Origin: Escherichia coli
Lineage (GTDB): Bacteria > Pseudomonadota > Gammaproteobacteria > Enterobacterales > Enterobacteriaceae
Assembly: GCF_024223415.1 (NCBI RefSeq)
Contig: NZ_CP100500.1
Reading direction: 5' to 3' (one strand)
Length of the DNA stretch: 64,000 bases
The position numbers were made by a program, and so were the translations under genes. Position 1 is the first letter of the stretch. Every line of letters starts with the position of its first letter. The notes under the pieces are model-generated. The model was not told the origin of the DNA. It was given only the letters and a program-made list of their open reading frames with translations, and ran no database searches. Positions 13,706 through 53,484 of the stretch are shown here, piece by piece.

Positions 13706-14833
13706 TCAGAACTCAAAATTCACACCAGCATTCCACGATGCGGATGACCCACCTGCAGCAACTGCAACTTTTCCTGCCACATTCTCTGTGAAACGGTAGC
13801 CCACGCCCACCGCAATGGCCTGCTCATCACGGTAACCACCAACGGCTGCTGTCGCGTTAAATTTTCCAACACTGTATGGCTGGAAAAGACCGGCCAGTGC
13901 CGCGCTCTGGGCTGCACTCTCCCTTAACTCCTTCCGGTTCTCTTTAATCTGCTCCTGCATATTATTCATTCTCTCTGTCGCCATCTTCTGCCAGGCTTCC
14001 GTCAAATCCAGACGATGACTGTTATTCCTTATCGCTGCTGTATTTGAGGCTATTGCTGCATCCGTCTGCGCCCTGTTCTTCACAAGCACATCGCTGAGAT
14101 GTTCTGCCTGGCTTTTCACCTCGTTACGGACAGTACGCACACTGCTGTCTGTATATGTACGCGTCTCGTCCAGAACATCCGACTTCACCGCATCCGTGTA
14201 TTCCTGCGCAGAAGCCCTGGCAGCTGTAATATTACCGTTAAGTCTGTTTTCTGCCGATTCCACTCGACTCTTAGCATCAGCAACAGCATCACGGTAGACA
14301 GCTCCTATCTCACCGCGCAGGGCATCCCCCGACTCCCGTACAGCATCTGCAATGGCGTTGTCCATCTGTCCTTTTGTGGCCGCATCACTATCCTTAACAC
14401 CATCTGAAACATTTATAATCCGGCGGGTTTCCGGTGCACCATCAACTGAAAATCCATATCCTGAAGGACCGGCCCCTACAGAAAGTACATTGCTTTCTCC
14501 ATTCACCTGAGAGCCATACCCCAGAGCGACACTGTTGTCTGCATTAAAAACAGCTGTATTATTTCCCACAGCCATGGATTTATCCGCATCCCAAATTATT
14601 GCATCGGAACCAACAGCAAAGTTTTTTCCAGTAACACTACCATCACTGTTAAAATTTCCATTTCTGTCAACCACAGTTGCACTTTCAAGTGAATGAGTGC
14701 CATTATCAATCCAGATAATACCCGTCGATGACTCAGTAAGTGTTTTATGAGCCAAAGCCTGAGATGAGAGCAGCAGGGCCACACTCACTGCCAGCGCGCT
14801 TTTCTTTAAAAAAGCATCACGTCTTTTAAGCAT
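13706..14833 (-). CDS. Trimeric autotransporter adhesin with YadA-like C-terminal anchor (Eib-like immunoglobulin-binding protein family candidate)
   Basis: ATG at 14833 gives 375 aa with signal peptide MLKRRDAFLKKSALAVSVALLLSSQALA, coiled-coil stalk, and C-terminal anchor ending ..WNAGVNFEF. Confidence 0.7.
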   Translation of the reverse strand: MLKRRDAFLKKSALAVSVALLLSSQALAHKTLTESSTGIIWIDNGTHSLESATVVDRNGNFNSDGSVTGKNFAVGSDAIIWDADKSMAVGNNTAVFNADNSVALGYGSQVNGESNVLSVGAGPSGYGFSVDGAPETRRIINVSDGVKDSDAATKGQMDNAIADAVRESGDALRGEIGAVYRDAVADAKSRVESAENRLNGNITAARASAQEYTDAVKSDVLDETRTYTDSSVRTVRNEVKSQAEHLSDVLVKNRAQTDAAIASNTAAIRNNSHRLDLTEAWQKMATERMNNMQEQIKENRKELRESAAQSAALAGLFQPYSVGKFNATAAVGGYRDEQAIAVGVGYRFTENVAGKVAVAAGGSSASWNAGVNFEF

Positions 14834-15237
14834 TCTGTTATTCTCCTGTATTATTACTTCACCAGCCAGAACGGTAGTGCGGAGCAAAAATACAGTGATA
14901 AGAATCCTCTTTTATTAATTTAATAATATCAGGAATATTATTGTGTATAATATGCGCCCTCAATTTAAGCAGCAGAAAAGCAATGACGCGAAAATCATTA
15001 AAATACATAAAGATAAAACATCATAACTATAATTATAATAAGCGCGCTTATTTTAGCATCTGAACATTTAAAGTACTGCTATCACAAAACAATAAAAATC
15101 CTGGGTAATATCTCTGATGATTGAATGAGAAATTCACGATGTCTGGTGAGAATTCTGTTCAAAACGAGGAATGCAGACGTACACGTGGCACGCACCACGT
15201 GATCCGTAGAAAAGCCTCTTGTTACGAATTTCGTAAA

Positions 15238-15268: not shown

Positions 15269-15454
15269 ATCCGTCAACTTCACATGAAACCCGCCAGAGC
15301 ACTGTTTCCGGATTCAGACATCAGGCATATTATCATCCACAATATCGTGAACAAGATCACCTTTTTGCAATTCCTTTATTGATCGAAAGCAGTTAATCAC
15401 TGAAATTAATTACCGGAGTGAAAGCATTACTGCATAATAAATATAGATCCTTGC

Positions 15455-15496: not shown

Positions 15497-16072
15497 TCAC
15501 CATCCAACCCTGTACGCCAGAATGGTTTCACTGTCACTCAGTTCTGCTATTGCCTTTTTCATCTCCCTTTGCCTTATATGTATTTCAAGGCCTTTCCTGA
15601 ACATCGCTTTACCAGCAGCATCACTCAGGGATATCAGTTCATCTGCCGTCATCGGTACATCATTATTCTCTGCGTCCGTCCAGAAAAATCCTTCCGGCAA
15701 CACTCCGCCTCTGGCCGCTGATGCCGACATTCCAAGACGTGTCATGGCTTCCTTTCCATAATCCCATTTCCGTCCTCTGTGCTCAAAAACATACCCTGAC
15801 GCCTCCATCGCATCACGCCAGGCATTTATCTCCGCGTTTTTCATCCTGCGTGCTTCTTCCACAGCCATATCATCATTTGCCCGGTACTCACCTACCGGCC
15901 CTGCATCACCTCTTATGCAGGCTTCAAATATTTCACGACCGTAAGACTCAGGATCATCCGCACTTGCTGTAAATACACATTCTGTTTCCGCGTCTGAAAA
16001 CTTCACTATACAGTTTATGGTCGTATGACCCCTGTCAGCCCACACTGGTGACGTGATTTTATCGACCTTCAT
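15497..16072 (-). CDS. Hypothetical protein in tail-fibre assembly (tfa) position
   Basis: 191 aa ORF immediately downstream of side tail fibre gene; assignment by position only. Confidence 0.4.
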   Translation of the reverse strand: MKVDKITSPVWADRGHTTINCIVKFSDAETECVFTASADDPESYGREIFEACIRGDAGPVGEYRANDDMAVEEARRMKNAEINAWRDAMEASGYVFEHRGRKWDYGKEAMTRLGMSASAARGGVLPEGFFWTDAENNDVPMTADELISLSDAAGKAMFRKGLEIHIRQREMKKAIAELSDSETILAYRVGW

Positions 16073-16086
16073 TCATTTCTCCCCTG

Positions 16087-17892
16087 TCACCGTATTCTCT
16101 GAAACAGGCCCCAAATCGTCCCAATGATATTATTCACTGTCATGTTAGTTGTGCATAACATCCATGTACCAAGCATAGGATTGCCAAATAAAAAGCGGAT
16201 ATCTGTAAGTTTATCCGATGACGACGACACAATAACGGCCTGTCTGATACGATACCCGGGTATTTCACGGGTATTTGTTACCTCATGATTTCGTTCTATG
16301 ATCCCCAGAACATAAGACCCCACGGAATAAACACTTCCGACGCTCGCTGGCTGCCCCGGCTGTCCCTGTGGTCCTGCCGGGCCGCGTTCACCTGTATACC
16401 CTCTTGGCCCCTGAGGACCTGCCGGGCCGCGTTCACCTGTATCCCCCTTTAGTCCCTGTGGACCTGCCGGACCGCGTTCACCTGTATCGCCCTTTGGTCC
16501 CTGTGGACCACGCTCCCCCTGGGCTCCCAGCTCTTTCCATTCAGACCAGGGGCCATTACCGGTAAAATTACCAGTAACAGTTCTTACGAACTTTCGTGGT
16601 GGGTTCCAGGTTGTATATTCATGCTGGCAATATCCCCATGCACCAACTCTTACCTGAAGATAACCCGCTCTCTGAATCGGATAATTATTTTCTCGTGTAG
16701 CCCCACTGTCTGATGGCTGATAATAATCACCCTGATCGGTCACTCGTCCCAGTCGGTTCAGATCACCATTCAGCAGTTGTCCACGGGCTGACTCTCCTCT
16801 TGGTCCCTGAGGACCTGCCGGACCGCGTGCTCCTGTTTCACCTTTTGCTCCCTGTGGACCTGTCGGACCGCGTTCACCTGTTTCACCTTTTGGTCCCTGT
16901 GGTCCTGCCGGGCCGCGTTCACCTGTTTCACCCTTTGCTCCCTGTGGACCTTCCGGGCCACGTTCACCTGTATCCCCCTTTGGTCCCTGAGGACCTGCCG
17001 GGCCACGTTCACCTGTATCGCCCTTTGATCCCTGTGGACCTGCCGGGCCGCGTTCACCTGTATCCCCCTTTGGTCCCTGTGGACCTCCCGGATCTCCTTT
17101 ATCCCCCTTAGGGCCTTTTTCTCCTCGCTCACCCTTTTCTCCCTTCAGACCCTGAGGGCCTTCCGGACCACGTGCACCTGTTTCGCCCTTTGCTCCCTGT
17201 GGACCTGCCGGGCCGCGTTCACCTGTTTCGCCCTTTGCTCCCTGTGGACCTGCCGGGCCGCGTGCACCTGTTTCACCCTTTGGTCCCTGTGGACCTGCCG
17301 GGCCGCGTTCACCTGTATCGCCCTTTAGTCCCTGTGGACCTGCCGGACCGCGTTCACCTGTTTCACCTTTTGGTCCCTGTGGTCCTGCCGGGCCACGTGC
17401 TCCTGTTTCACCTTTTGGCCCCTGTGGCCCGGTAATGCCTCTTTCACCACGAGCGCCGGTATCCCCTTTCTCTCCTCGTGGTCCCCGGGCAGATGCTGCT
17501 CGTTTCCGGGCTTCCTCCGCCTCAGATGCCGCGGACTCTGCTCTGTGCAGTATGGACTGCACCACAGCCTCCAGCTCTGACAACGCCTTCGGATAATAAG
17601 GAGCATCTTCCAGCTCCATCAGAAATTTATTCAGTGTTCCCGGTGAAGAATCCTCCCTGACCACGATATCTCCCACATACGAAGGACGGTAACCTTCTGT
17701 ATTGAGTGTCACCCTGTATATTCCTGGCTCCACATCCATACTGTAACTCCCCGTCTCTTCCGGCATGCCATAAGCCACTGTCGTGGCGATGACTGTCTCG
17801 CTGGTTCTCTTCGCTTTCAGCTCAATAATGCATCCCGGTACCGGTTTTCCGGTTCCGTCCCTCAGCACGCCTGAAATTTTTACAGCCGCCAT
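16087..17892 (-). CDS. Side tail fibre protein (lambda Stf-like N-terminus) with collagen-like Gly-X-Y repeats
   Basis: 601 aa; N-terminus [18 protein letters not shown].. resembles lambda Stf; long [19 protein letters not shown] collagen triple-helix repeats. Confidence 0.85.
16320..17510. repeat. Tandem collagen-like coding repeats (27/45-bp periodic units) within the tail fibre gene
   Basis: Repeated GGTCCCTGTGGACCTGCCGGRCCGCGTTCACCTGT units on plus strand. Confidence 0.85.
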
Positions 17893-17964: not shown

Positions 17965-18210
17965 TTACTTCACGCACGAAACTTTCGTAAACATATCTTC
18001 ACTCACCCACTGACCATAAAATCTCGGAGCTGATACTTTATACACAGTGCCGCTTTTCGTTTCTATTTTCCCTGTAAGATCTACCGTATAAGCTCGCTGT
18101 AAAACCCCGGGACTCAGCACACCGGTGCACCGGACTCTCTCCGTAACGGAACGGTACCCCGCGCAACCTGATACAAGAAACAGCAAAAAAGTGCAGACGA
18201 TTATTTTCAT
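17965..18210 (-). CDS. Small lipoprotein (signal peptide with LVSGC lipobox), possible Cor-like superinfection-exclusion protein
   Basis: 81 aa; MKIIVCTFLLFLVSGC lipoprotein signal; located between J-distal genes and side tail fibre. Confidence 0.55.
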   Translation of the reverse strand: MKIIVCTFLLFLVSGCAGYRSVTERVRCTGVLSPGVLQRAYTVDLTGKIETKSGTVYKVSAPRFYGQWVSEDMFTKVSCVK

Positions 18211-18231
18211 TACATGCCCTCAACATAACTA

Positions 18232-18894
18232 TCAGTACGCATCATAAATTTCTGCATTTATGTAATAACAGAGGTTATTAACAACACCTGAATTATCATT
18301 GGGCGCCGCTACGTTATCTTCAGCAAAAGTTGACTGACGCCATAACTGTGAGTTTCTGGCATTAAAACTGGCGGTATACCAGTAATAACTCTCCCCTTCC
18401 TGAACTGTCGTCCACTGGGTACACCCCGGCATTACGGCCACATCATGTCCCACACTGATCGGTACATCCTTTTCCCATATTCGCGTCATTTTTACTTCCA
18501 GTGGCAGCATTTCCGTGTTCCAGACCACCCTGCCATGACTGTCGCACAACTGTATTCCCCATTGCGGCCATACATTCACCATGTTGGCAAAAACATAAAC
18601 AACATATGTGCTGTCCTGTTCCATGCCCGGCTCCTGCCCTGTACCAGCGCTGAAAATGTCATACTGCCAGGTACCGTTAAGCTGAACCATTTCACCATGG
18701 AAGGACTGATTACCGCTTATCTGTTTAATAAAAATCACGCAACGATAATTCGTCGGCACCCCAGTGTCGATAAACTGCATCACCGCATCACGCGCACTCA
18801 GTGTGAAATGAAAACGGCGCACAAGGTTCAGTGGCGGCGCAACAGGTGATATCCATTCTCTCCCCCGCTCATCAGTTAATTTAAGTGCAAACAT
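18232..18894 (-). CDS. Hypothetical protein, translationally coupled downstream of J
   Basis: 220 aa ORF; start overlaps upstream ORF stop. Confidence 0.55.
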   Translation of the reverse strand: MFALKLTDERGREWISPVAPPLNLVRRFHFTLSARDAVMQFIDTGVPTNYRCVIFIKQISGNQSFHGEMVQLNGTWQYDIFSAGTGQEPGMEQDSTYVVYVFANMVNVWPQWGIQLCDSHGRVVWNTEMLPLEVKMTRIWEKDVPISVGHDVAVMPGCTQWTTVQEGESYYWYTASFNARNSQLWRQSTFAEDNVAAPNDNSGVVNNLCYYINAEIYDAY

Positions 18895-19154
18895 CAGATC
18901 CCCCTTATCATGACCAGCACGGGTCTTAACCAGCTTGTGTTGGCATAGTGCACTGTCCAGCCGGATACACTGGCACTGGTATGACTTCCCTGACCGTTAA
19001 TCAGAATGGCCGGTGAACAGACTTCCAGACGCCAGCCCTGCAAAGGAGTATAAGAACGCTGCCCCGTCCCTTCAGTGATCACATCCAGCACCCCTGTTGG
19101 GTTTATTTCATGTGTCACAAGGCGCCCTTTGCGCCATACCCGGACTCCGAACAT
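18894..19154 (-). CDS. Hypothetical protein immediately downstream of J
   Basis: 86 aa ORF; start overlaps J stop. Confidence 0.45.
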   Translation of the reverse strand: MFGVRVWRKGRLVTHEINPTGVLDVITEGTGQRSYTPLQGWRLEVCSPAILINGQGSHTSASVSGWTVHYANTSWLRPVLVMIRGI

Positions 19155-22100
19155 TACAGTCTCCCCAGTCGTACTCTTAACACATTGTTATCGTCATATA
19201 CGTCGATTCGCTCGCCATTGAAAAACAGGCGGCCTGCGCCGGGCCTTCCTGAGTTAATTTCAAGGCTGCCGTTTCTTGATAAACGCCACCCCGGACTACC
19301 GGAATGAAAATTATCTGACCGGATATCTCCCGTCACTCTGGCAAAATCCACGGTCAGTTTTTTCATGAAAACATCATTCATGAACAGCTGATCACCCTGA
19401 GCCACAAACAAAGGTGTTGTATTGCCATTTTCCGGGTTAATCATCGCAATACGATCTGCCTGCATCAGGATCTGACTCTGAATTCCGTCAGACGTATTTT
19501 CGATTCCGGCACCAATACCTGCAATATAGAGACGTCCATCCCGTGTCTGCTGCAGCTTCACAGCCCACATGCTGTTCAGGTTCCGGCGCGTGTCCTCCTG
19601 AACTTTCTGTATCTGCTCAATGCTGGCATTCCAGGATCCCAGTTTTTTATCCGTGCTCTGTGTGATCTGACTTCCCTTATCATCAACATACTGTCTGATC
19701 TGCGCTATCTGTCGGCTGTTCTCCTCCGTGCTCCTGCTTACTGTCTGCCGGATTTCGCTTCCCATCCTGTCAACTTTTCTGTCAACTTCCGCAATGGCCA
19801 TTGACTGTTCAGCGCTCTTTTTCGCCACAACAGTACTTATTTGCGCACTTTTATCATCAACATACTGCCTGACCTGCGCTATCTGTCGGCTGTTCTCCTC
19901 CGTGCTCCTGCTCACTGTCTGCCGGATTTCACTGCTCACGCTGTCAACTTTCCTGTCGACTTTCGCAATGGCCAGCGACTGTTCACCGCTCTTTTTCGCC
20001 ACCAGTTCCGTTATGCTGTTTTCAGACGCCGTGATTTTTTTCGTCACCTCTGCGATATCACGCTCCGCACGCTGCCTCACATCTTTCTCCAGCTGCGTCA
20101 TTTCGCGGTTAATCGCATTCTCCAGTTGCTCAACTTCAGTGCGCCGTGCAGAGGCATCAATGCGTTCATTGATCTCCCGTCCCAGATGCGTTTTATTTAT
20201 CGCCCCCCTGAAAAAATTAAGGTAACCGGCAGGATCATTACTCGCCCGACCGACTGCCTCCACGAATGCCGATTTACCGACAGTGTTAACACTGCGGATA
20301 TAAAAGTAATAATCATGGCCAGGTTTAATATTCTGGCCGGAGACAAGCCACTGACTTCCGGTACCAAGATAACGGGCTGTGGTTTCAACCTGCCTGATAT
20401 CGGTAATCCGCGTTTCCGAGAACCAGAACTCAAACTGTACCGTCGGATCGTAAACCGCAAGATGCGGCGTGGCGGTTATCTGAAAATAGCCCGGCGTCAG
20501 CTCAATCCGCGACGGCGCTGCCGGTGCGGCAATCCGGAACGATACCGACGCCGGGTCTCCCTGCTGCCCCCGGGCATTTACTGCCCGGACTGTCAGCCTG
20601 TAGTTCCCCGGCGCCAGCTGCCTGAAGCGGTATGTGGTTTCCGTCGTCCGGGCCGTGCTGACCAGCCGCTCACTGCCATCATCCGCGGCCACGGTCAGGC
20701 GAAGCAGGAAGCTCACGCCCTTCACCACCTTCGGCGTGTCCCAGCGCGCCAGCACCTGATATTCCCCGCTGTCTGCGGTGACTTCTGCGGTCAGGTGCTG
20801 CACCGCTGGCGGCGTGACACCATTCACCGTTCCGCTCTGGTCGCCGTCAAAGTGCGCCCCGTTATCCACGATGGCCTCTTTTTCCGGTACATGCTGCACG
20901 GCAGTGATGGCATACGTGCCGTCGTCGTTCTCACGGATACTCACGCAGCGGAACAGGCGCTGGCGCAGCGTCGGCAGCTTCAGCCCCCACACGCTGTACT
21001 CGGCAACGCCGTCAGGAACCCGGCTCACTTTTACCTTCACGCCGTCGGTGACGGACTGAACCTCCACGCTGACCGGATTGCCACTTCCGTCAACCAGACT
21101 TATCAGCGTGGTACCGGAGGATGGCAGCGTGATTTCACGGTCGAGCGTCAGCGTCCGGGTCTGGCTGTTCACCGCCAGCACACGACCACCGGTGCTGATA
21201 CCGGCATAGTCATCATCACAGATTTCAATGACATCGCCCGGTACATGGCGAAGCCCTTCAGCACCCACGCTGAAATCCACGGTCTGCGTCTCCAGCAGTT
21301 CTGTTTTAATCAGCCACAGCCCGGCGCGGTGTGCCTGCCCCCGGCTGGTACAGCCAAAGGCATCCATCTTCGTGACGTTACGACCGTAACGGGCAATGGC
21401 CTGCGTGTCCTCCACAAGCTCTGTCGCCGTCTCCTGGCCGTTATCCGGGTCACTCCAGTTCACCTCAACGGCATTATGGCGGTCCTTCAGGGCGCTGAAG
21501 CTGTAGCGGAACGGCGCGCCATCATCCGGCATCACCACATTACTGCGGTTATAGGTCCACACCTTATCCGACGGTCGGTCCTGCACGAACGTCAGCGTCT
21601 GCCCGTTCCATACCGGCATACAGCGCATCGCCGAGCAGAAATCACTGAGCACATCCCACGCCTTACGCTGCCTGGTCAGCCAGGCATTACAGGTGATGCG
21701 CGGCTCCGTGCCACCAGAGCCGTCCGGCACCGACTGGTCGCAGTACTGGCCGATGACATACAGCGCCCATTTGTCCACATCCGCTGCGCCAACACGTTTC
21801 CCCATGCCGTAGCGCGGGTGGGTCAGCATATCCCACAGACACCAGGCCGGGTTATCGCTGTATGCCGGTTTAAACGTTCCGTCCCAGATACCGCTGTATT
21901 GCCGCGTCTGCGGGTTATAGTTCGACGGCACCTGCAGAATGCGCCCGCGAAGATGATAATTACGGCTCACCTGCTGGCTGCCGAACTGCTCCGAATCCAC
22001 CTGCACACCGACCAGTGCCGTGTTCGGGTAGCACTGTTTCACATCGATGATTTCGGTGTATGACGACCAGAGCGTTTTGTTCTGCAGCTGGTCTGTGGTG

Positions 22101-22663
22101 CTGTCCGGCGTCATCCTGCGCATCCGGATACTGAACGGGCGCGGCGGCAGGTTACCCACCACCACCGGGGCCAGATACTGCGAGGTGGTTTTGCCCTTAA
22201 TGGTGATGTCTTTTTCCGTTAACCAGCGACCGTTACGCTGTATCTGAACCAGCAGGCGGACTTCCGACGGATTCCGGTCCCCCTTTGAGGTGGTTTCCAC
22301 CAGTGCCTGCACACCGAAGGTCAGGCGCAGACGGTCGATGTTTGCCGACGTGATGGTCCGGGTAATCGGCGTGTCGTACTTCACTTCCGTACCCAGCACC
22401 GTCTCGGAGCCGGAGGATTCAAATCCCTCCGGCGGCGTCTGCTCCTGCTCACCGGCCCGGAATACCACCGTGACGCCGGATATATTGGTATTCCCCTCAC
22501 TGTCCAGCACCGGCGTACCGTTCAGCAGCACGCTTTTTAATCCATCCACCGGTCCTTGTATCGGCCCTTCGCTGATGACATCGATCACACTCAGCAACTG
22601 CGTGGACTTCAGGTTGTCCTTCGCTTCGCGCGGGGTATGCCCCTTACTGCTGCCTTTACCCAT
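19154..22663 (-). CDS. Host specificity / central tail fibre protein J
   Basis: 1169 aa; lambda gpJ-like N-terminal and fibronectin-like regions; internal duplicated coiled-coil segment. Confidence 0.9.
19690..19995. repeat. About 150-bp tandem duplication inside J (encodes repeated ..AKKSxEQSxAIAxVDRKVD..[28 protein letters not shown].. segment)
   Basis: Two near-identical adjacent copies visible in DNA and protein. Confidence 0.8.
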
Positions 22664-22671
22664 TCCTCACA

Positions 22672-22704
22672 CTCCATAAACAACAAAGCCGCCCAAAAGG
22701 CGGC
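22672..22704 (-). terminator. Intrinsic terminator after the I-J intergenic lipoprotein gene, ending at the J ribosome-binding site
   Basis: GCCGCC-CAAAA-GGCGGC hairpin followed on minus strand by UUUGUUGUUUAU. Confidence 0.55.
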
Positions 22705-22729
22705 TCATGAGTTACGGCAGGATTAACTA

Positions 22730-23068
22730 TTATTTACATGCATTAACACTATCAGCAAAAATTTTTGGCGTTAATGCTGGTACGCGTTCATAAAGAGTAA
22801 AACTACTGCCATTTCCTGCTTTTTTGATATCAAGCACAACATCATACCCACCCATAGCCTGTGGAACTAAAAGGCTTACCCCATTCTCAATAGGAATGGA
22901 TGTTATAGGTGTTCCATTACCAGCCCATTGTCTGGATATGCAGCCTGACAATTCATCAATATTTTTTAATGAATTACCTTCCATTACAGGCTTGCCGGAT
23001 TTTACGTAATCCAAAGATTTACATCCTGTTAAGGCAATAATCGTGCAGAATAAAATCGTTTTGTTCAT
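22730..23068 (-). CDS. Lipoprotein (moron) inserted between tail genes I and J
   Basis: ATG at 23068 gives 112 aa starting MNKTILFCTIIALTGC (lipobox); AT-rich relative to flanking tail genes. Confidence 0.6.
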   Translation of the reverse strand: MNKTILFCTIIALTGCKSLDYVKSGKPVMEGNSLKNIDELSGCISRQWAGNGTPITSIPIENGVSLLVPQAMGGYDVVLDIKKAGNGSSFTLYERVPALTPKIFADSVNACK

Positions 23069-23140
23069 ATAGCTAACCAACAGAATAATTATCAGTGTTC
23101 GATATAAATATTAAATCAGTTAGAACATGAGTAAATAATA

Positions 23141-23782
23141 TTACCGCCCAATTACCACAACCTGACCACCATCCCCTTCATCTGCCGTGCTAATCTCCTG
23201 AGATGCCACACGTGACCCCACGCGCATTTCACCGTACAGAACAGGCAGGACATTGCCCTGGGCAACCATGTTATCCAATGAGGAAAAATAGGTATTTTGC
23301 TTACCGTTATCAGTGGCTGACACTTTAGGCGTTTTGGCTTTCGGTGCCAGCATCTGCGCAACACCGCCTAAAACCATACCTGCCCCAAGAGAGAACATGA
23401 GATTACTTGCAACAATACTAAGCCCCGGCATCCAGATTGCCGTAGCAATTAGCGCCGCACCCAGCACTGCCTGAAAAATACCGCCACTTTTGGCACCCGC
23501 CAGACGCGGTACGATGTGGATCACGGCACCATTTGCCAGCGGCTCATTAAGACGGGCAGATAATTCGTTTTCGCCTGCATCACGCCCGGCAATGCGCACC
23601 TGATACCAGCCGTCATTCAGTTTCTGACGAAACGCCGGGAGCTGTGTGGCCAGTGCCCGGATGGCTTCAGCCCCCGTTTTCACACGAAGGTCGATGCGGC
23701 GGCCAAATCGTTGCAAATCCCCGTAAAGGCAGATGCGTGCCATGCCCGGTGACGCCTGAGGGAGTGTGTGCGTCGCTGCCAT
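23141..23782 (-). CDS. Tail assembly protein I
   Basis: 213 aa; lambda gpI-like; overlaps K. Confidence 0.85.
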   Translation of the reverse strand: MAATHTLPQASPGMARICLYGDLQRFGRRIDLRVKTGAEAIRALATQLPAFRQKLNDGWYQVRIAGRDAGENELSARLNEPLANGAVIHIVPRLAGAKSGGIFQAVLGAALIATAIWMPGLSIVASNLMFSLGAGMVLGGVAQMLAPKAKTPKVSATDNGKQNTYFSSLDNMVAQGNVLPVLYGEMRVGSRVASQEISTADEGDGGQVVVIGR

Positions 23783-42796: not shown

Positions 42797-42873
42797 TGGA
42801 CCGCCACCGGGGACTCGAACCTCGCACACTCAACTTAAAGGGTTGACGCTCTTTCCTGATGAGCTAGTGGCGG
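42797..42873 (-). tRNA. tRNA-like gene with non-canonical anticodon loop CCUUUAA (by analogy to Stx-phage argN/argO position)
   Basis: Cloverleaf with 7-bp acceptor, GCTC/GAGC D-stem, TTCGAGT T-loop, CCA encoded; C33 and one T-stem mismatch. Confidence 0.55.
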
Positions 42874-42874
42874 T

Positions 42875-42950
42875 TGGTGGCCCTTGCTGGATTTGAACCA
42901 GCGACCTGGCGATTATGAGTCGCTCGCTCTCACCACTGAGCTAAAGGGCC
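42875..42950 (-). tRNA. tRNA with CAU anticodon (ileX/ileZ-like tRNA-Ile2 or Met)
   Basis: GGCCCTTTAGCTCAGTGGTGAGAGCGAGCGACTCATAATCGCCAGGTCGCTGGTTCAAATCCAGCAAGGGCCACCA folds as canonical cloverleaf. Confidence 0.8.
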
Positions 42951-43160: not shown

Positions 43161-43856
43161 TCAATCTACTTTTGCAACACTTTGCTTTGAAAATGCCGCC
43201 TTTTGTTTTGAACGTGTTCTCATTACAAACAATAAAGCCTCACTATCCAGTCGGTGAAAAATGTGTTTCATTGCAACCCAGTGACGAGTAAATGTTTTGG
43301 ACCAGTTTTTAGTTGTCACTCCCGCCAGTAATGCCAGCTCCTGGTATTCATAACTTTCCCCACCAAAAAGTTCTGCTTTTACTGCCTGCGCCGCCAGCCA
43401 GATTAATTTTTTCAGGCGTTCCTGCGTTTTCCCTGCAATTTTTCTGGTACCTGATTGAGTATTAAATTCATTCCACGCCCACTGTGTTATCGCGATCTGA
43501 TATTCCCAACAAATACTCCCGCTGTAACTCCACAACAACCAGGCTTTATGATGTTCTTCAAGAGACAGAACAGCCCGCCGCCACGATGATGTCGAAAACT
43601 CAACCGGGCTGACCAGGGCAATTGATGAGCCTTTCGCCAGTGATTGTTTTCCCGGGATTGGTGGATTATCCCGCGTTATCATTTTTCCAGTCACTTCATC
43701 GCGGTACCGGATTTTTTTACGCCTGTAACGCCCTGTATCAAACATGGCATTCTCCTGCCAGGCCTCAAGCTGCCCTTTTGTTGATCCACTCAAATCGGCG
43801 GTGGCAATCATGAGTTGCTGACGAACAAACTGTAAATACTGGTTATTCATGCGCAC
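43161..43856 (-). CDS. Putative late-gene antiterminator Q (QuuQ/YdfT-like)
   Basis: 231 aa; sits downstream of rusA and DUF968 gene and upstream of tR' and lysis genes, as QuuQ in Qin prophage. Confidence 0.55.
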   Translation of the reverse strand: MRMNNQYLQFVRQQLMIATADLSGSTKGQLEAWQENAMFDTGRYRRKKIRYRDEVTGKMITRDNPPIPGKQSLAKGSSIALVSPVEFSTSSWRRAVLSLEEHHKAWLLWSYSGSICWEYQIAITQWAWNEFNTQSGTRKIAGKTQERLKKLIWLAAQAVKAELFGGESYEYQELALLAGVTTKNWSKTFTRHWVAMKHIFHRLDSEALLFVMRTRSKQKAAFSKQSVAKVD

Positions 43857-46270: not shown

Positions 46271-46426
46271 TTACTCCTCAGGTTCGTAAGCTGTGAAGAC
46301 AGCGACCTCCGTCTGGCCGGTTCGGATTCGTACCTCGCAGAGGTCTTTCCTCGTTACCAGTGCCGTCACAATGACGGTAATACAGATGACGATCAGGGCG
46401 ACTAACATCGCCTTTTGCTGCTTCAT
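46271..46426 (-). CDS. hok: Hok/Gef family type I toxin
   Basis: 51 aa MKQQKAMLVALIVICITVIVTALVTRKDLCEVRIRTGQTEVAVFTAYEPEE, nearly identical to remembered HokD/RelF. Confidence 0.88.
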   Translation of the reverse strand: MKQQKAMLVALIVICITVIVTALVTRKDLCEVRIRTGQTEVAVFTAYEPEE

Positions 46427-46717
46427 AGCCTGCTTCTCCTTGCCTTTCGGCACGTAAGAGGCTAACCTAGATTTGCCGTTCATAGATTGAGCCTCAGATT
46501 AATGTTAAGCGTCTTGCCGGACGCGTAATGTTAACTGGGGCTTTTCTCTATCTGCCTTTTGGGGTTCATGCCTGAGACAGATAGCCTCAAGCACCCGCTG
46601 CAATTCTACTTAACTCTCCTTTTCCCGCAAACCATTTTTATCCCCAGCGGCAAATCGAATACACCACCAGCGCCACCGCCATCGCAATTCCTACCGTTGT
46701 GAATGCTTCAGGCCAGG

Positions 46718-52675: not shown

Positions 52676-53292
52676 AACCAATTTCCTCTCGGGTAACAGA
52701 CCCCTCAGAGGATACCACCTCGCCTGACGTGGTTAAAAGCAGGCACACAACACGAAAGCGCACGGCGAGGTAGCTGGTTCATATATAGCCTGTCGTTAAA
52801 TTTTCGTCGACCGTGCGCTTCCGGTTGTGGCACTCCGCGAAATGGCGCGGCGGTAAGCATGGCGGGGTTCCCTTCCCCTTGAGGACACCGGGTTGTCAGG
52901 TTGACCATGCGCCTGAGTGACAACCCCGCTGCAACGCCCTCTGTTATCAATTTTCTGGTGACGTTTGGCGGTATCAGTTTTACTCCGTGACTGCTCTGCC
53001 GCCCTTTTTAAAGTGAATTTTGTGATGTGGTGAATGCGGCTCAGCGCACGCGGAACAGTTAAAACCAAAAACAGAGTTATGGGTGGATTCTCTGTATCCG
53101 GCGTTAATTGTTAACTGGTTAACGTCACCTGGAGGCACCTGGCACCGCATCAACAAAGTTCACTTCGGTGATGAAAGGTAAGAGAAAATGTTGAATGTAG
53201 CTATTGAAAACCAGTACGGGTGGAATTATAGTGCACCTGCACCTCATAAAACGGGTGCCGGGCGTGGAAACCCGAAAGTTACTCGAGCGCAT

Positions 53293-53316
53293 AACCGCGC
53301 CGAAGCGGTTTTTTTA
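53293..53316 (+). terminator. Intrinsic terminator in leftward early leader (tL-like)
   Basis: AACCGC-GCCGAA-GCGGTT followed by T7. Confidence 0.6.
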
Positions 53317-53484
53317 TGCGTAATGCACAGCCACATTCAGATAATGGTGGGGCGTGCAGGGCAGCTGCAAGGCTGGCCGGGTTCTCGAGTGACCGGTATT
53401 TCCACCCCTGTACGTCTCGCCACCCTTATGGTCGTGGAAAGCCTCGGTGGTGAGTTAATTAACTTAACACTTGAGGATGCCATC

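What the first reader, a model, noticed from the sequence alone, without database searches (positions are those of the whole stretch)
22672..23140. Lipoprotein gene with its own terminator inserted between tail assembly gene I and J
In lambda I and J are adjacent. Here a 480-bp AT-rich insert carries a 112-aa lipoprotein gene (MNKTILFCTIIALTGC) followed by an intrinsic terminator hairpin that ends exactly at the J Shine-Dalgarno. A terminator directly upstream of J could attenuate J expression or make it depend on antitermination.
Basis: seen in the sequence. Interest (0 to 1): 0.6.

Follow-up and report, generated by a model that had tools for sequence, protein, structure and literature searches.

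The report
Lipoprotein cargo gene between tail genes
A lambda-like prophage carries an extra, horizontally acquired gene for an exported lipoprotein of unknown function between tail genes I and J, but the "terminator" after it is a hairpin that phage lambda itself has at the same spot, so this is an ordinary phage cargo gene, not a new control on J.

Summary
A 477-bp stretch of 35% GC lies between I (23141..23782, -) and J (19154..22663, -). It carries an intact 112-aa lipoprotein ORF (22730..23068, -), followed by a GC-rich hairpin with a U-rich tail (22676..22706) that abuts J's Shine-Dalgarno.

Lambda's I and J are separated by a 60-bp spacer holding the homologous hairpin (AAACCGCC-TGCG-GGCGGTTT) at the same distance from J. 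About 190 of 203 lambda-like loci have such a hairpin, with or without cargo, so the insert did not bring it.

The junction is a cargo hot spot. Spacers are 59-62 bp in most loci, 477 bp with this gene, and 851 bp with sodC. Non-coding inserts of 171-920 bp also occur.

The protein belongs to PHROG 914 (function unknown), with an invariant lipobox Cys and a conserved Cys43/Cys111 pair. The model is confident (pLDDT 92) and shows a TBP-like alpha/beta fold. Homologues sit at other tail junctions (T-H, K-I), on chromosomes and on a plasmid-like contig. It is therefore mobile cargo, not a tail part.

The gene is not linked to any J receptor-binding type, and the prophage already has a Cor-like lipoprotein beside J. 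The insert occurs in 333 of 5426 complete E. coli genomes, annotated "hypothetical". I infer an outer-membrane conversion or exclusion role, which is untested.

The parts
23141..23782 (-). Tail assembly gene I, forming the upstream border of the insert. Its stop codon is 23141..23143.
   Evidence: ORF. PHROG 32 'tail assembly protein', E=1e-82.
23069..23140 (-). 72-nt AT-rich leader between the I stop and the lipoprotein ATG. It holds only weak sigma-70-like matches (TTAATA-15-GATAAT, TTTACT-16-TAATAT) and no good Shine-Dalgarno.
   Evidence: The consensus scan finds no minus-strand promoter at >=9/12 with 16-18 spacing. My own scan gives the best sites as 8-9/12 with suboptimal spacing.
23126..23132 (-). 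Left copy of a 7-bp direct repeat, ACTCATG, that brackets the insert.
   Evidence: with the sequence. This is a post hoc observation and may be chance.
22730..23068 (-). Lipoprotein gene of 112 aa plus stop. It has a signal peptide with lipobox LTGC (Cys16), Lys at +2 (predicted outer-membrane sorting), and conserved Cys43 and Cys111.
   Evidence: PHROG 914, E=5.7e-33. Invariant C16/C43/C111 in 42 homologues. AlphaFold2 pLDDT 92.1. Purifying selection.
22706..22712 (-). Right copy of the 7-bp direct repeat ACTCATG. It overlaps the first base of the hairpin stem.
22676..22706 (-). Terminator-like hairpin (22686..22706) plus U-rich tail TGTTGTTTAT (22676..22685). It is homologous to the hairpin in lambda's I-J spacer.
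   Evidence: Scan and RNA fold. Lambda and relatives.
22661..22675 (-). J ribosome-binding region: GGAG (22672..22675), an 8-nt spacer, then ATG (22661..22663). It is conserved with lambda.
   Evidence: Phage megablast hits run from J into the hairpin (window 22600..22694/22707).
19154..22663 (-). Central tail fibre / host specificity gene J (1169 aa), forming the downstream border of the insert.
   Evidence: Annotated gpJ in matching E. coli genomes.

Best explanation
This is a horizontally acquired cargo gene, a 'moron' in the Hendrix sense, lodged in the short spacer that lambda-like phages keep between tail genes I and J, just upstream of a hairpin that is resident at that junction.

[quoted passage not shown] Its roughly 95-residue TBP-like alpha/beta domain, probably pinned by a Cys43-Cys111 disulfide, faces the periplasm. 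It therefore cannot be part of the tail, which is assembled in the cytoplasm.

The gene is co-oriented with the late operon, so it is transcribed with the tail genes after induction, when Q-modified polymerase reads through the hairpin. The AT-rich leader may also give weak transcription in the lysogen. In that case the hairpin would stop those transcripts before J.

Most likely role, which is inferred and not shown: an envelope-acting lysogenic-conversion factor. It would most probably exclude other phages or mask or protect an envelope component, rather than block this phage's own J receptor.

What is shown: the anatomy, the family, the mobility of the gene, and the pre-existence of the hairpin. 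What is inferred: the localisation (from sequence rules), the expression pattern and the function.
For: - Insert versus empty site. Among 120 viral contigs sharing the J start, about 100 have a 59-60-bp spacer and 20 have 476-478 bp with this gene.
- Variable junction. Among 80 more diverse loci the I-J gap is 59-62, 71-72, 171, 232-250, 342-343, 477-478, 715, 851 (sodC, opposite strand) or 920 bp.
- Resident hairpin. It is present in lambda and in 174 of 203 loci within 60 nt of J, plus roughly 15 more loci where it starts just beyond 60 nt. Stem sequences differ (AACCGCC/GGCGGTT, AGCCGCC/GGCGGCT, AAGCCACC/GGTGGCTT, AAGTGCC/GGCACTT, CAGGCACC/GGTGCCTG).
- Foreign composition. GC is 0.35 against 0.58 in the flanks.
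- Mobility of the family. A 50%-identical homologue lies between T and the tape-measure gene in Enterobacter prophages. That is the slot of the HK97 gene 15 moron (PMC3594210). Homologues at 30-32% identity lie upstream of I (between K and I in Fraca and LMessi). Others are chromosomal and outside prophages in Shimwellia and Dyella, or on a Rep3/ParA contig.
- Selection. 19 of 20 copies are intact, with about 8 synonymous against 3 conservative replacement sites.
- A Q-like antiterminator lies upstream in the same orientation.
- Prevalence. 333 of 5426 complete E. coli genomes carry the insert. The gene alone is found in 336, so it sits essentially always at this junction.
Against: - No function is demonstrated. 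There is no Pfam, NCBIfam or PADLOC match and no named relative.
- An own promoter is not evident. Homologues in Fraca have no room for one, so expression in the lysogen, part of the classic moron definition, is unproven.
- The hairpin allele GAGCCGCC...GGCGGCTT is found only with the insert: 24 of 24 insert-bearing loci and none of about 150 short-spacer loci. Gene and hairpin therefore travel together, and the direction of evolution cannot be fixed. It could be an insertion upstream of a resident hairpin, or lambda's spacer could be a deletion scar of an older moron.
- The exclusion idea has no direct support. The gene is not linked to any J C-terminal type or I allele.
Confidence: 0.6

Rival explanations
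1. This would be a self-contained moron that brought its own terminator, newly placing J behind a termination signal so that J is attenuated or made dependent on antitermination.
For: - The hairpin scores as terminator-like.
- In every phage context, the lipoprotein homologue is followed by a hairpin and U-run directly before the next tail gene.
- The insert-specific hairpin allele is fully linked to the gene.
Against: - Lambda and about 150 insert-free relatives have the homologous hairpin, U-tract and SD at the same place.
- Fraca has one at I-J without cargo.
- J is therefore behind a hairpin in lambda as well, and the late operon already depends on Q.
Confidence: 0.1
2. A cognate superinfection-exclusion lipoprotein of the Cor/Llp type. 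It would bind the outer-membrane receptor used by this phage's J/RBP and block re-adsorption or DNA injection.
For: - It is a predicted outer-membrane lipoprotein encoded beside J.
- There is precedent: Cor and Llp lie next to receptor-binding genes (PMC4936722).
- A lipoprotein at K-I in Pseudomonas phage AH14a was read this way.
- The best hit in the viral structure library is a protein of that phage.
Against: - The insert occurs with at least five different J C-terminal clusters, and each cluster also occurs without it.
- In O55:H7 it sits with a lambda-type J followed by Lom.
- It lies 3.5 kb from the receptor-binding end of J.
- This prophage already has a Cor-like lipoprotein right after the J-distal genes (17965..18210; PHROG 1119).
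- There is no sequence or fold match to Cor or Llp.
Confidence: 0.12
3. Reverse evolutionary direction. A gene-plus-terminator moron would be ancestral at I-J, and lambda's 60-bp spacer would be the scar left after the gene was deleted, with the hairpin as a relic moron terminator.
For: - Lambda's other tail genes abut or overlap, while I-J keeps an unexplained 60-nt spacer.
- Hairpins at T-H and K-I accompany lipoprotein cargo.
- A 7-bp direct repeat, ACTCATG, brackets the insert. Recombination across it would leave a 57-nt spacer.
Against: - Cargo-free hairpins are widespread across J lineages of 69-96% identity and in Hendrixvirinae.
- Cargo at the site is heterogeneous (lipoprotein, sodC, non-coding), which favours a resident hairpin with changing cargo.
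- Lambda's spacer does not align convincingly with the predicted deletion product.
Confidence: 0.13
4. A host-fitness or virulence factor of the Bor/Iss type, for example conferring serum or stress resistance, with no role in phage-phage conflict.
For: - It is an outer-membrane lipoprotein moron like lambda Bor (PMC3594210).
- It is independent of the phage's tail specificity.
- Chromosomal, non-phage homologues exist in several Proteobacteria.
- The nearest fold neighbour, Flpp3, is a Francisella lipoprotein.
Against: - There is no homology to Bor/Iss and no Pfam hit.
- No strong lysogen promoter is evident.
- There are no experimental data.
Confidence: 0.2
5. A spurious or decaying ORF in AT-rich junk DNA.
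For: - The Shine-Dalgarno is weak.
- It is annotated 'hypothetical' and was only recently added to RefSeq annotations.
- One of 20 copies is frameshifted.
Against: - It gives a full-length family match.
- Three cysteines are invariant across 42 homologues at 22-56% identity.
- The predicted fold is confident.
- Substitutions are mostly synonymous.
Confidence: 0.02

Closest known systems
HK97 gene 15 moron (Juhala/Hendrix; Cumby et al.), the founding 'moron'
   Same: - Extra DNA of deviant GC content sits at a tail-gene boundary, co-oriented with the late operon.
- It encodes a small envelope protein.
- A 50%-identical homologue of the present lipoprotein occupies the same T/tape-measure slot in Enterobacter prophages (PMC3594210).
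   Different: - gp15 is an inner-membrane protein with demonstrated exclusion activity and a recognised promoter and terminator.
- Here the product is a predicted outer-membrane lipoprotein.
- No promoter is evident, the hairpin is shared with cargo-free relatives, and the function is untested.
Cor (phi80/N15/HK022) and Llp (T5) superinfection-exclusion lipoproteins
   Same: They are small phage-encoded outer-membrane lipoproteins encoded in or near the tail/receptor-binding region.
   Different: - There is no sequence or fold similarity.
- Cor and Llp sit beside the receptor-binding gene and match its receptor. This gene is unlinked to J's C-terminal type.
- It also co-exists with a Cor-like gene in the same prophage.
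Lambda Bor (and Lom): lysogenic-conversion outer-membrane proteins
   Same: They are lambda-family cargo genes for outer-membrane proteins, unrelated to virion structure.
   Different: - They are unrelated in sequence.
- Bor lies in the lysis region and is expressed from the prophage. Expression of this gene in lysogens is unknown.
sodC cargo in lambdoid prophages
   Same: It occupies the same I-J junction in related prophages (L185), which shows the site is a general cargo slot.
   Different: - It is on the opposite strand.
- It is an enzyme of known function.
- It replaces the junction hairpin.
Flpp3 / DUF3568 and BamC N-domain (TBP-like or helix-grip lipoprotein domains)
   Different: - Sequence identity is only 6-10%.
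- There is no Pfam match.
- Fold resemblance only; it implies no shared function.

Membership tests
Moron (Hendrix/Juhala definition) | Extra DNA at a gene boundary, absent from otherwise syntenic relatives | tested here: met
   Spacers of 59-60 bp versus 476-478 bp among 120 loci. Lambda has a 60-bp spacer.
Moron (Hendrix/Juhala definition) | Base composition different from the flanking phage genes | tested here: met
   GC 0.35-0.40 versus 0.55-0.62.
Moron (Hendrix/Juhala definition) | Own promoter | tested here: inconclusive
   No site at >=9/12 with 16-18 spacing. Only weak candidates were found. Homologues in Fraca lack room for a promoter.
Moron (Hendrix/Juhala definition) | Own terminator | tested here: inconclusive
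   A hairpin is present, but a homologous one exists in cargo-free lambda and relatives. The insert-linked allele does travel with the gene (24 of 24 loci).
Moron (Hendrix/Juhala definition) | Expression from the repressed prophage | not testable with these tools
   This needs RNA-seq or 5'-RACE on a lysogen.
Bacterial lipoprotein (Lgt/LspA/Lnt pathway) | Signal peptide ending in a lipobox [LVI][ASTVI][GAS]C | tested here: met
   MNKTILFCTIIA-LTGC16. The Cys is invariant in 42 homologues.
Bacterial lipoprotein (Lgt/LspA/Lnt pathway) | Lipid modification, and outer-membrane sorting when +2 is not Asp | not testable with these tools
   The +2 residue is Lys (sequence). Localisation is inferred from the +2 rule only.
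PHROG 914 | Full-length match to the family HMM | tested here: met
   E=5.7e-33, residues 1-112 on profile positions 1-118 of 118. The family has no assigned function.
Cor superinfection-exclusion protein (PHROG 1119) | Sequence match to the family | tested here: not met
   Only PHROG 914 is hit at E<=1. The separate 81-aa ORF at 17965..18210 is the one that matches Cor.
Cor/Llp-type cognate exclusion | Genetic linkage to the receptor-binding module it protects against | tested here: not met
   The insert is found with at least five J C-terminal clusters, each of which also occurs without it. See also the different J/Lom context in O55:H7.
Llp (T5) | Sequence or fold similarity to the solved Llp structure | tested here: not met
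Intrinsic (Rho-independent) terminator | GC-rich stem-loop followed directly by a U-rich tract | tested here: met
   9-bp stem with 6 G-C pairs and a 3-nt loop, with tail UGUUGUUUAU (7 U in 10, interrupted).
Intrinsic (Rho-independent) terminator | Measured termination, and its bypass by Q | not testable with these tools
   This needs reporter assays or Term-seq.
Lambda-type tail structural or assembly protein | Conserved presence and fixed position in the tail module | tested here: not met
   The gene is absent from about 83% of close relatives. It sits at T-H, K-I or I-J in different phages, and homologues occur outside phages.

The most novel reading that the evidence does not exclude
PHROG 914 lipoproteins could be a previously unrecognised family of envelope-acting phage-exclusion or receptor-masking factors. 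They would lodge repeatedly at tail-gene junctions (T-H, K-I, I-J) of lambda- and HK97-like prophages across Enterobacteria and Pseudomonas. The conserved hairpin before J would be a functional insulator and docking point that makes the I-J junction a cargo hot spot.
Probability: 0.25. Interest if true: 0.55.

Novelty: new member of a known kind. Interest (0 to 1): 0.3.

Why it matters
About 6% of complete E. coli genomes, including the type strain ATCC 11775 and O55:H7 CB9615, carry this gene, annotated only as 'hypothetical'. Knowing that it is an exported lipoprotein cargo gene, rather than tail machinery, tells annotators and phage engineers two things. It can probably be removed without harming virions. 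It is also a candidate lysogenic-conversion or exclusion factor worth a simple plating screen.

The comparison also documents two points about lambda-type tail modules that the lambda reference record does not annotate. A terminator-like hairpin is conserved just upstream of J, in lambda itself as well. The I-J spacer is also a recurrent cargo slot, holding this lipoprotein, sodC or non-coding inserts. Neither point changes current understanding of late-gene control.

Tried and rejected
- **Pfam, NCBIfam and PADLOC** on the lipoprotein gave nothing beyond a signal-peptide-level VirB7 hit.
- **PDB sequence profile search** gave no meaningful hit.
- **A second whole-database profile search** for a named relative returned only 'hypothetical', plus a few JGI 'YceK' labels that I attribute to signal-peptide similarity.
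- **Linkage to J's receptor-binding end** was tested and rejected. Linkage to the I allele was also rejected: I identity is 60-91% among insert carriers.
- **Rfam** on the non-coding I-J insert variants found no family.
- **Literature searches** for a described I-J lipoprotein or a described lambda I-J terminator found none in the held library. One malformed query failed.
- **A tail-component role** was considered and rejected, because a Sec-exported lipoprotein cannot join a tail assembled in the cytoplasm.
- **An o-spanin (Rz1-like) role** was considered and rejected, because this is a structured 95-residue domain that lies outside the lysis cassette.
- **The deletion-scar idea for lambda's spacer** was examined through the 7-bp flanking repeat. 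It is retained only as a low-confidence rival.

Full report
**Anatomy.** The window holds a complete lambdoid prophage transcribed on the minus strand.
- It contains a Q-like antiterminator (43161..43856), an endolysin, head genes and tail genes.
- Gene I is 23141..23782 and gene J is 19154..22663 (I matches PHROG 32).
- The two genes are separated by 477 nt.
- Inside that gap, ATG 23068 opens a 112-codon ORF ending at 22730. Its product begins MNKTILFCTIIALTGC, a textbook lipoprotein signal with lipobox LTGC.
- GC content drops to 0.35-0.40 across the gap, against 0.55-0.62 on either side.
- Twenty-three nt after the stop codon lies a hairpin, GAGCCGCCU-UUU-GGGCGGCUU. It is followed by UGUUGUUUAU, then GGAG, then 8 nt, then the J ATG.

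**The ORF is a real, conserved gene.**
- It matches PHROG 914 end to end (E=5.7e-33). That family has no assigned function.
- An exhaustive search of 1.8 billion representatives found 60 relatives at E<=1e-3, most of them 105-125 aa.
- In an alignment of 42 relatives (22-56% identity), only three positions are invariant: the lipobox Cys16, Cys43 and Cys111. The latter two suggest a periplasmic disulfide.
- AlphaFold2 on that alignment gives a confident model (pLDDT 92.1, pTM 0.81), with a helix packed on a five-stranded sheet plus a C-terminal helix.
- Among 20 independent viral-contig copies, 19 are intact. The differences comprise about eight synonymous sites against three conservative replacements (I58L, V77I, I37V).

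**The hairpin is not the insert's own.**
- In lambda (NC_001416), I ends at 15444 and J starts at 15505.
- The 60-nt spacer reads TGCAAAATGTTTTATGTGAAACCGCCTGCGGGCGGTTTTGTCATTTATGGAGCGTGAGGA-ATG.
- From the stem onward this is the same element as in the window: ..GAGCCGCCTTTTGGGCGGCTTTGTTGTTTATGGAGTGTGAGGA-ATG.
- The 3' arm, U-tract, GGAG and spacing are near-identical. One stem pair differs by a compensatory A-T to G-C change.
- Megablast of the region against phage genomes independently showed that homology with lambda-like phages runs from J into the hairpin (window 22600..22694/22707) and stops there.
- Of 203 lambda-like loci collected in two ways, 174 have a terminator-like hairpin within 60 nt of J. 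About 15 more have one that starts just beyond 60 nt (sequences).
- Stems differ between lineages: AACCGCC/GGCGGTT, AGCCGCC/GGCGGCT, GACCGCC/GGCGGTT, AAGTGCC/GGCACTT and CAGGCACC/GGTGCCTG.
- In the Hendrixvirinae phages Fraca and LMessi the stems are AAGCCACC/GGTGGCTT and GGCCACC/GGTGGCT.

So the structure and position are conserved while the sequence drifts. J sits behind such a hairpin in lambda itself.

**The I-J junction is a cargo slot.**
- With a strict J-start pattern, about 100 of 120 viral contigs have a 59-60-bp spacer and 20 have the 476-478-bp lipoprotein insert.
- In a more diverse set (J N-terminus 69-96% identical), the gap is 59-62 bp (43 loci), 71-72 (4), 171, 232-250 (11), 342-343 (9), 477-478 (3), 715, 851 (3) or 920 bp.
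- The 851-bp version encodes a Cu,Zn superoxide dismutase (sodC) on the opposite strand. The 171-343, 715 and 920-bp versions have no convincing ORF and no Rfam match.
- In complete E. coli genomes, the I-insert-J configuration occurs in 333 of 5426. The lipoprotein gene alone occurs in 336, so within E. coli the gene is essentially always at this junction.
- RefSeq annotates it 'hypothetical protein', for example WP_153274582.1 in O55:H7 CB9615, under a late-added locus tag.

**The gene family is mobile cargo, not tail machinery.**
- A 50%-identical homologue lies between the tail chaperone T and the tape-measure gene in Enterobacter prophages. That is the slot of the original HK97 gene 15 moron (PMC3594210).
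- Homologues at 30-32% identity lie between K and I in phages Fraca and LMessi, next to a second lipoprotein gene. Another lies directly upstream of I in a metagenomic contig.
- A 38%-identical homologue in Shimwellia blattae lies between yidB-like and ecotin genes, and one in Dyella lies next to uvrB. Both are outside prophages.
- Another is on a Rep3/ParA plasmid-like contig.
- A Sec-exported, lipidated protein cannot be built into a tail assembled in the cytoplasm (established cell biology).

**What comes with the gene.**
- In each phage context, the lipoprotein gene is followed by a hairpin and U-run directly before the next tail gene's ribosome-binding site. That matches the classic moron layout.
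- In the I-J case, the specific hairpin allele (GAGCCGCC...GGCGGCTT) is found in 24 of 24 insert-bearing loci and in none of about 150 short-spacer loci. Gene and hairpin allele therefore travel as one recombination unit.
- I read this as tight linkage (they lie about 25 bp apart) after an insertion upstream of a resident hairpin. The reasons are that cargo-free hairpins are widespread and old, while the cargo varies.
- The opposite direction, with lambda's spacer as the scar of a deleted moron, cannot be excluded. A 7-bp direct repeat, ACTCATG (23126..23132 and 22706..22712), brackets the insert and could have mediated such a deletion. This is a post hoc observation.

**Expression.**
- No sigma-70 consensus site at >=9/12 with standard spacing lies upstream on the coding strand.
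- The best candidates are TTAATA-15-GATAAT and TTTACT-16-TAATAT. The Shine-Dalgarno is poor.
- In Fraca there is no room for a promoter.
- The safe statement is that the gene is transcribed as a passenger of the Q-dependent late operon. Transcription in the lysogen is possible but unproven.
- The hairpin has an ordinary 8-9-bp stem and an interrupted U-tract.
- Processive antitermination generally bypasses ordinary terminators, and one study reports that resistance to bypass requires unusually long stems (PMC10325885).
- The hairpin would therefore matter, if at all, for un-antiterminated transcripts, such as spurious or moron-promoter transcripts in the lysogen, or for mRNA 3'-end stability. 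It would not limit J during lytic growth. None of this is measured.

**Function.**
- Nothing in Pfam, NCBIfam, PADLOC or PDB sequences matches. A second profile search found no named relative.
- AFDB50 returns only unnamed 'Lipoprotein' entries across Entero-, Pseudo- and Burkholderiales. BFVD returns a protein of Pseudomonas phage phiAH14a. That phage's authors had noted a lipoprotein gene between K and I and guessed a Cor-like role (PMC4936722).
- I tested the obvious hypothesis of a cognate, Cor/Llp-like blocker of J's receptor by linkage. The insert occurs with at least five J C-terminal clusters, each of which also occurs without it.
- It also occurs with I alleles only 60% identical to each other.
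- In O55:H7 it precedes a lambda-type J followed by Lom.
- This window's J is instead followed by 86-aa and 220-aa ORFs and a Cor-like lipoprotein (17965..18210; PHROG 1119, E=8e-7).

A self-receptor blocker is therefore unlikely. My best guess, explicitly an inference, is an outer-membrane-anchored periplasmic conversion factor that acts independently of the carrier phage's tail specificity. That would mean excluding other phages or toxins, or protecting the envelope in a Bor-like way.

**Verdict.**
The insert and the lipoprotein are right. 'Its own terminator' and a special effect on J are not.
- The feature is a new, uncharacterised member of a well-known kind: a moron in the tail operon.
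- Interest is modest. It rests on the unknown function of a fairly common E. coli prophage lipoprotein, and on the conserved hairpin and cargo slot at I-J, which is present in lambda but not annotated in its reference record.

Noticed in passing
window 17965..19154 (-): Directly after J come an 86-aa ORF (18894..19154), a 220-aa ORF (18232..18894, PHROG 425) and an 81-aa lipoprotein (17965..18210) that matches the Cor superinfection-exclusion family (PHROG 1119, E=8e-7). This is the usual layout of a receptor-binding module followed by a Cor-like lipoprotein, so the prophage carries two unrelated lipoprotein genes flanking J.
   Followed up: partly
window 13706..14887 (-): A 393-aa YadA-type trimeric autotransporter lies downstream of the tail-fibre genes (NF033478, E=3e-23, below the curated cut-off). 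From memory it resembles the prophage-borne Eib immunoglobulin-binding proteins.
   Followed up: partly
window 16087..17892 (-): A 601-aa tail-fibre-like protein consists largely of collagen-type G-P-x-G-x-K-G-E/D-T-G-E/A-R repeats. It hits collagen-like adhesin models.
   Followed up: no
window 42800..42950, 46421..46596, 52953..53427: Rfam matches found in the prophage are two tRNAs near Q, a sok antitoxin RNA, DicF, isrK and C4 antisense RNA.
   Followed up: no
L185/L186/L196 (IMG/VR), I-J gap of 851 bp: Related prophages carry a Cu,Zn superoxide dismutase (sodC) gene on the opposite strand at the same I-J junction. In these loci the junction hairpin is missing.
   Followed up: partly
L181-L197, L207, L212 (IMG/VR), I-J gaps of 171, 232-250, 342-343, 715 and 920 bp: Non-coding inserts occupy the I-J junction. 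Most share a repeated sequence motif (seen as 'KFLKFFTF' in a reverse-frame translation), and several carry their own hairpin, CAGGCAYCC...GGRTGCCTG-TTGTTTTT. There is no Rfam family match. They could be small RNA genes or remnants.
   Followed up: partly
L179/L180 (IMG/VR), upstream of J: Only the 3' arm and U-tract of the I-J hairpin survive (..TTCATTCGGGCGGTTTTGTTGTTTACGGGG..). A rearrangement breakpoint therefore lies inside the hairpin.
   Followed up: no
L003 (phage Fraca) 4649..5400 and 5985..6050: Fraca has two adjacent lipoprotein genes between K and I. The first starts MRKFLSILACSLIIVGC, upstream of the annotated start. Strong hairpins with seven U's sit directly before both I and J, and both are followed by TTTTTATGG.
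   Followed up: partly
window 23126..23132 and 22706..22712: A 7-bp direct repeat, ACTCATG, brackets the lipoprotein insert. It may be a footprint of insertion or a substrate for deletion, or it may be chance.
   Followed up: partly
NZ_CP082081.1 (plasmid, 149,988 bp) 71460..71798: One copy of the lipoprotein gene (98.2% identity) lies on a large non-mobilizable E. coli plasmid record, presumably within a phage-derived segment.
   Followed up: no
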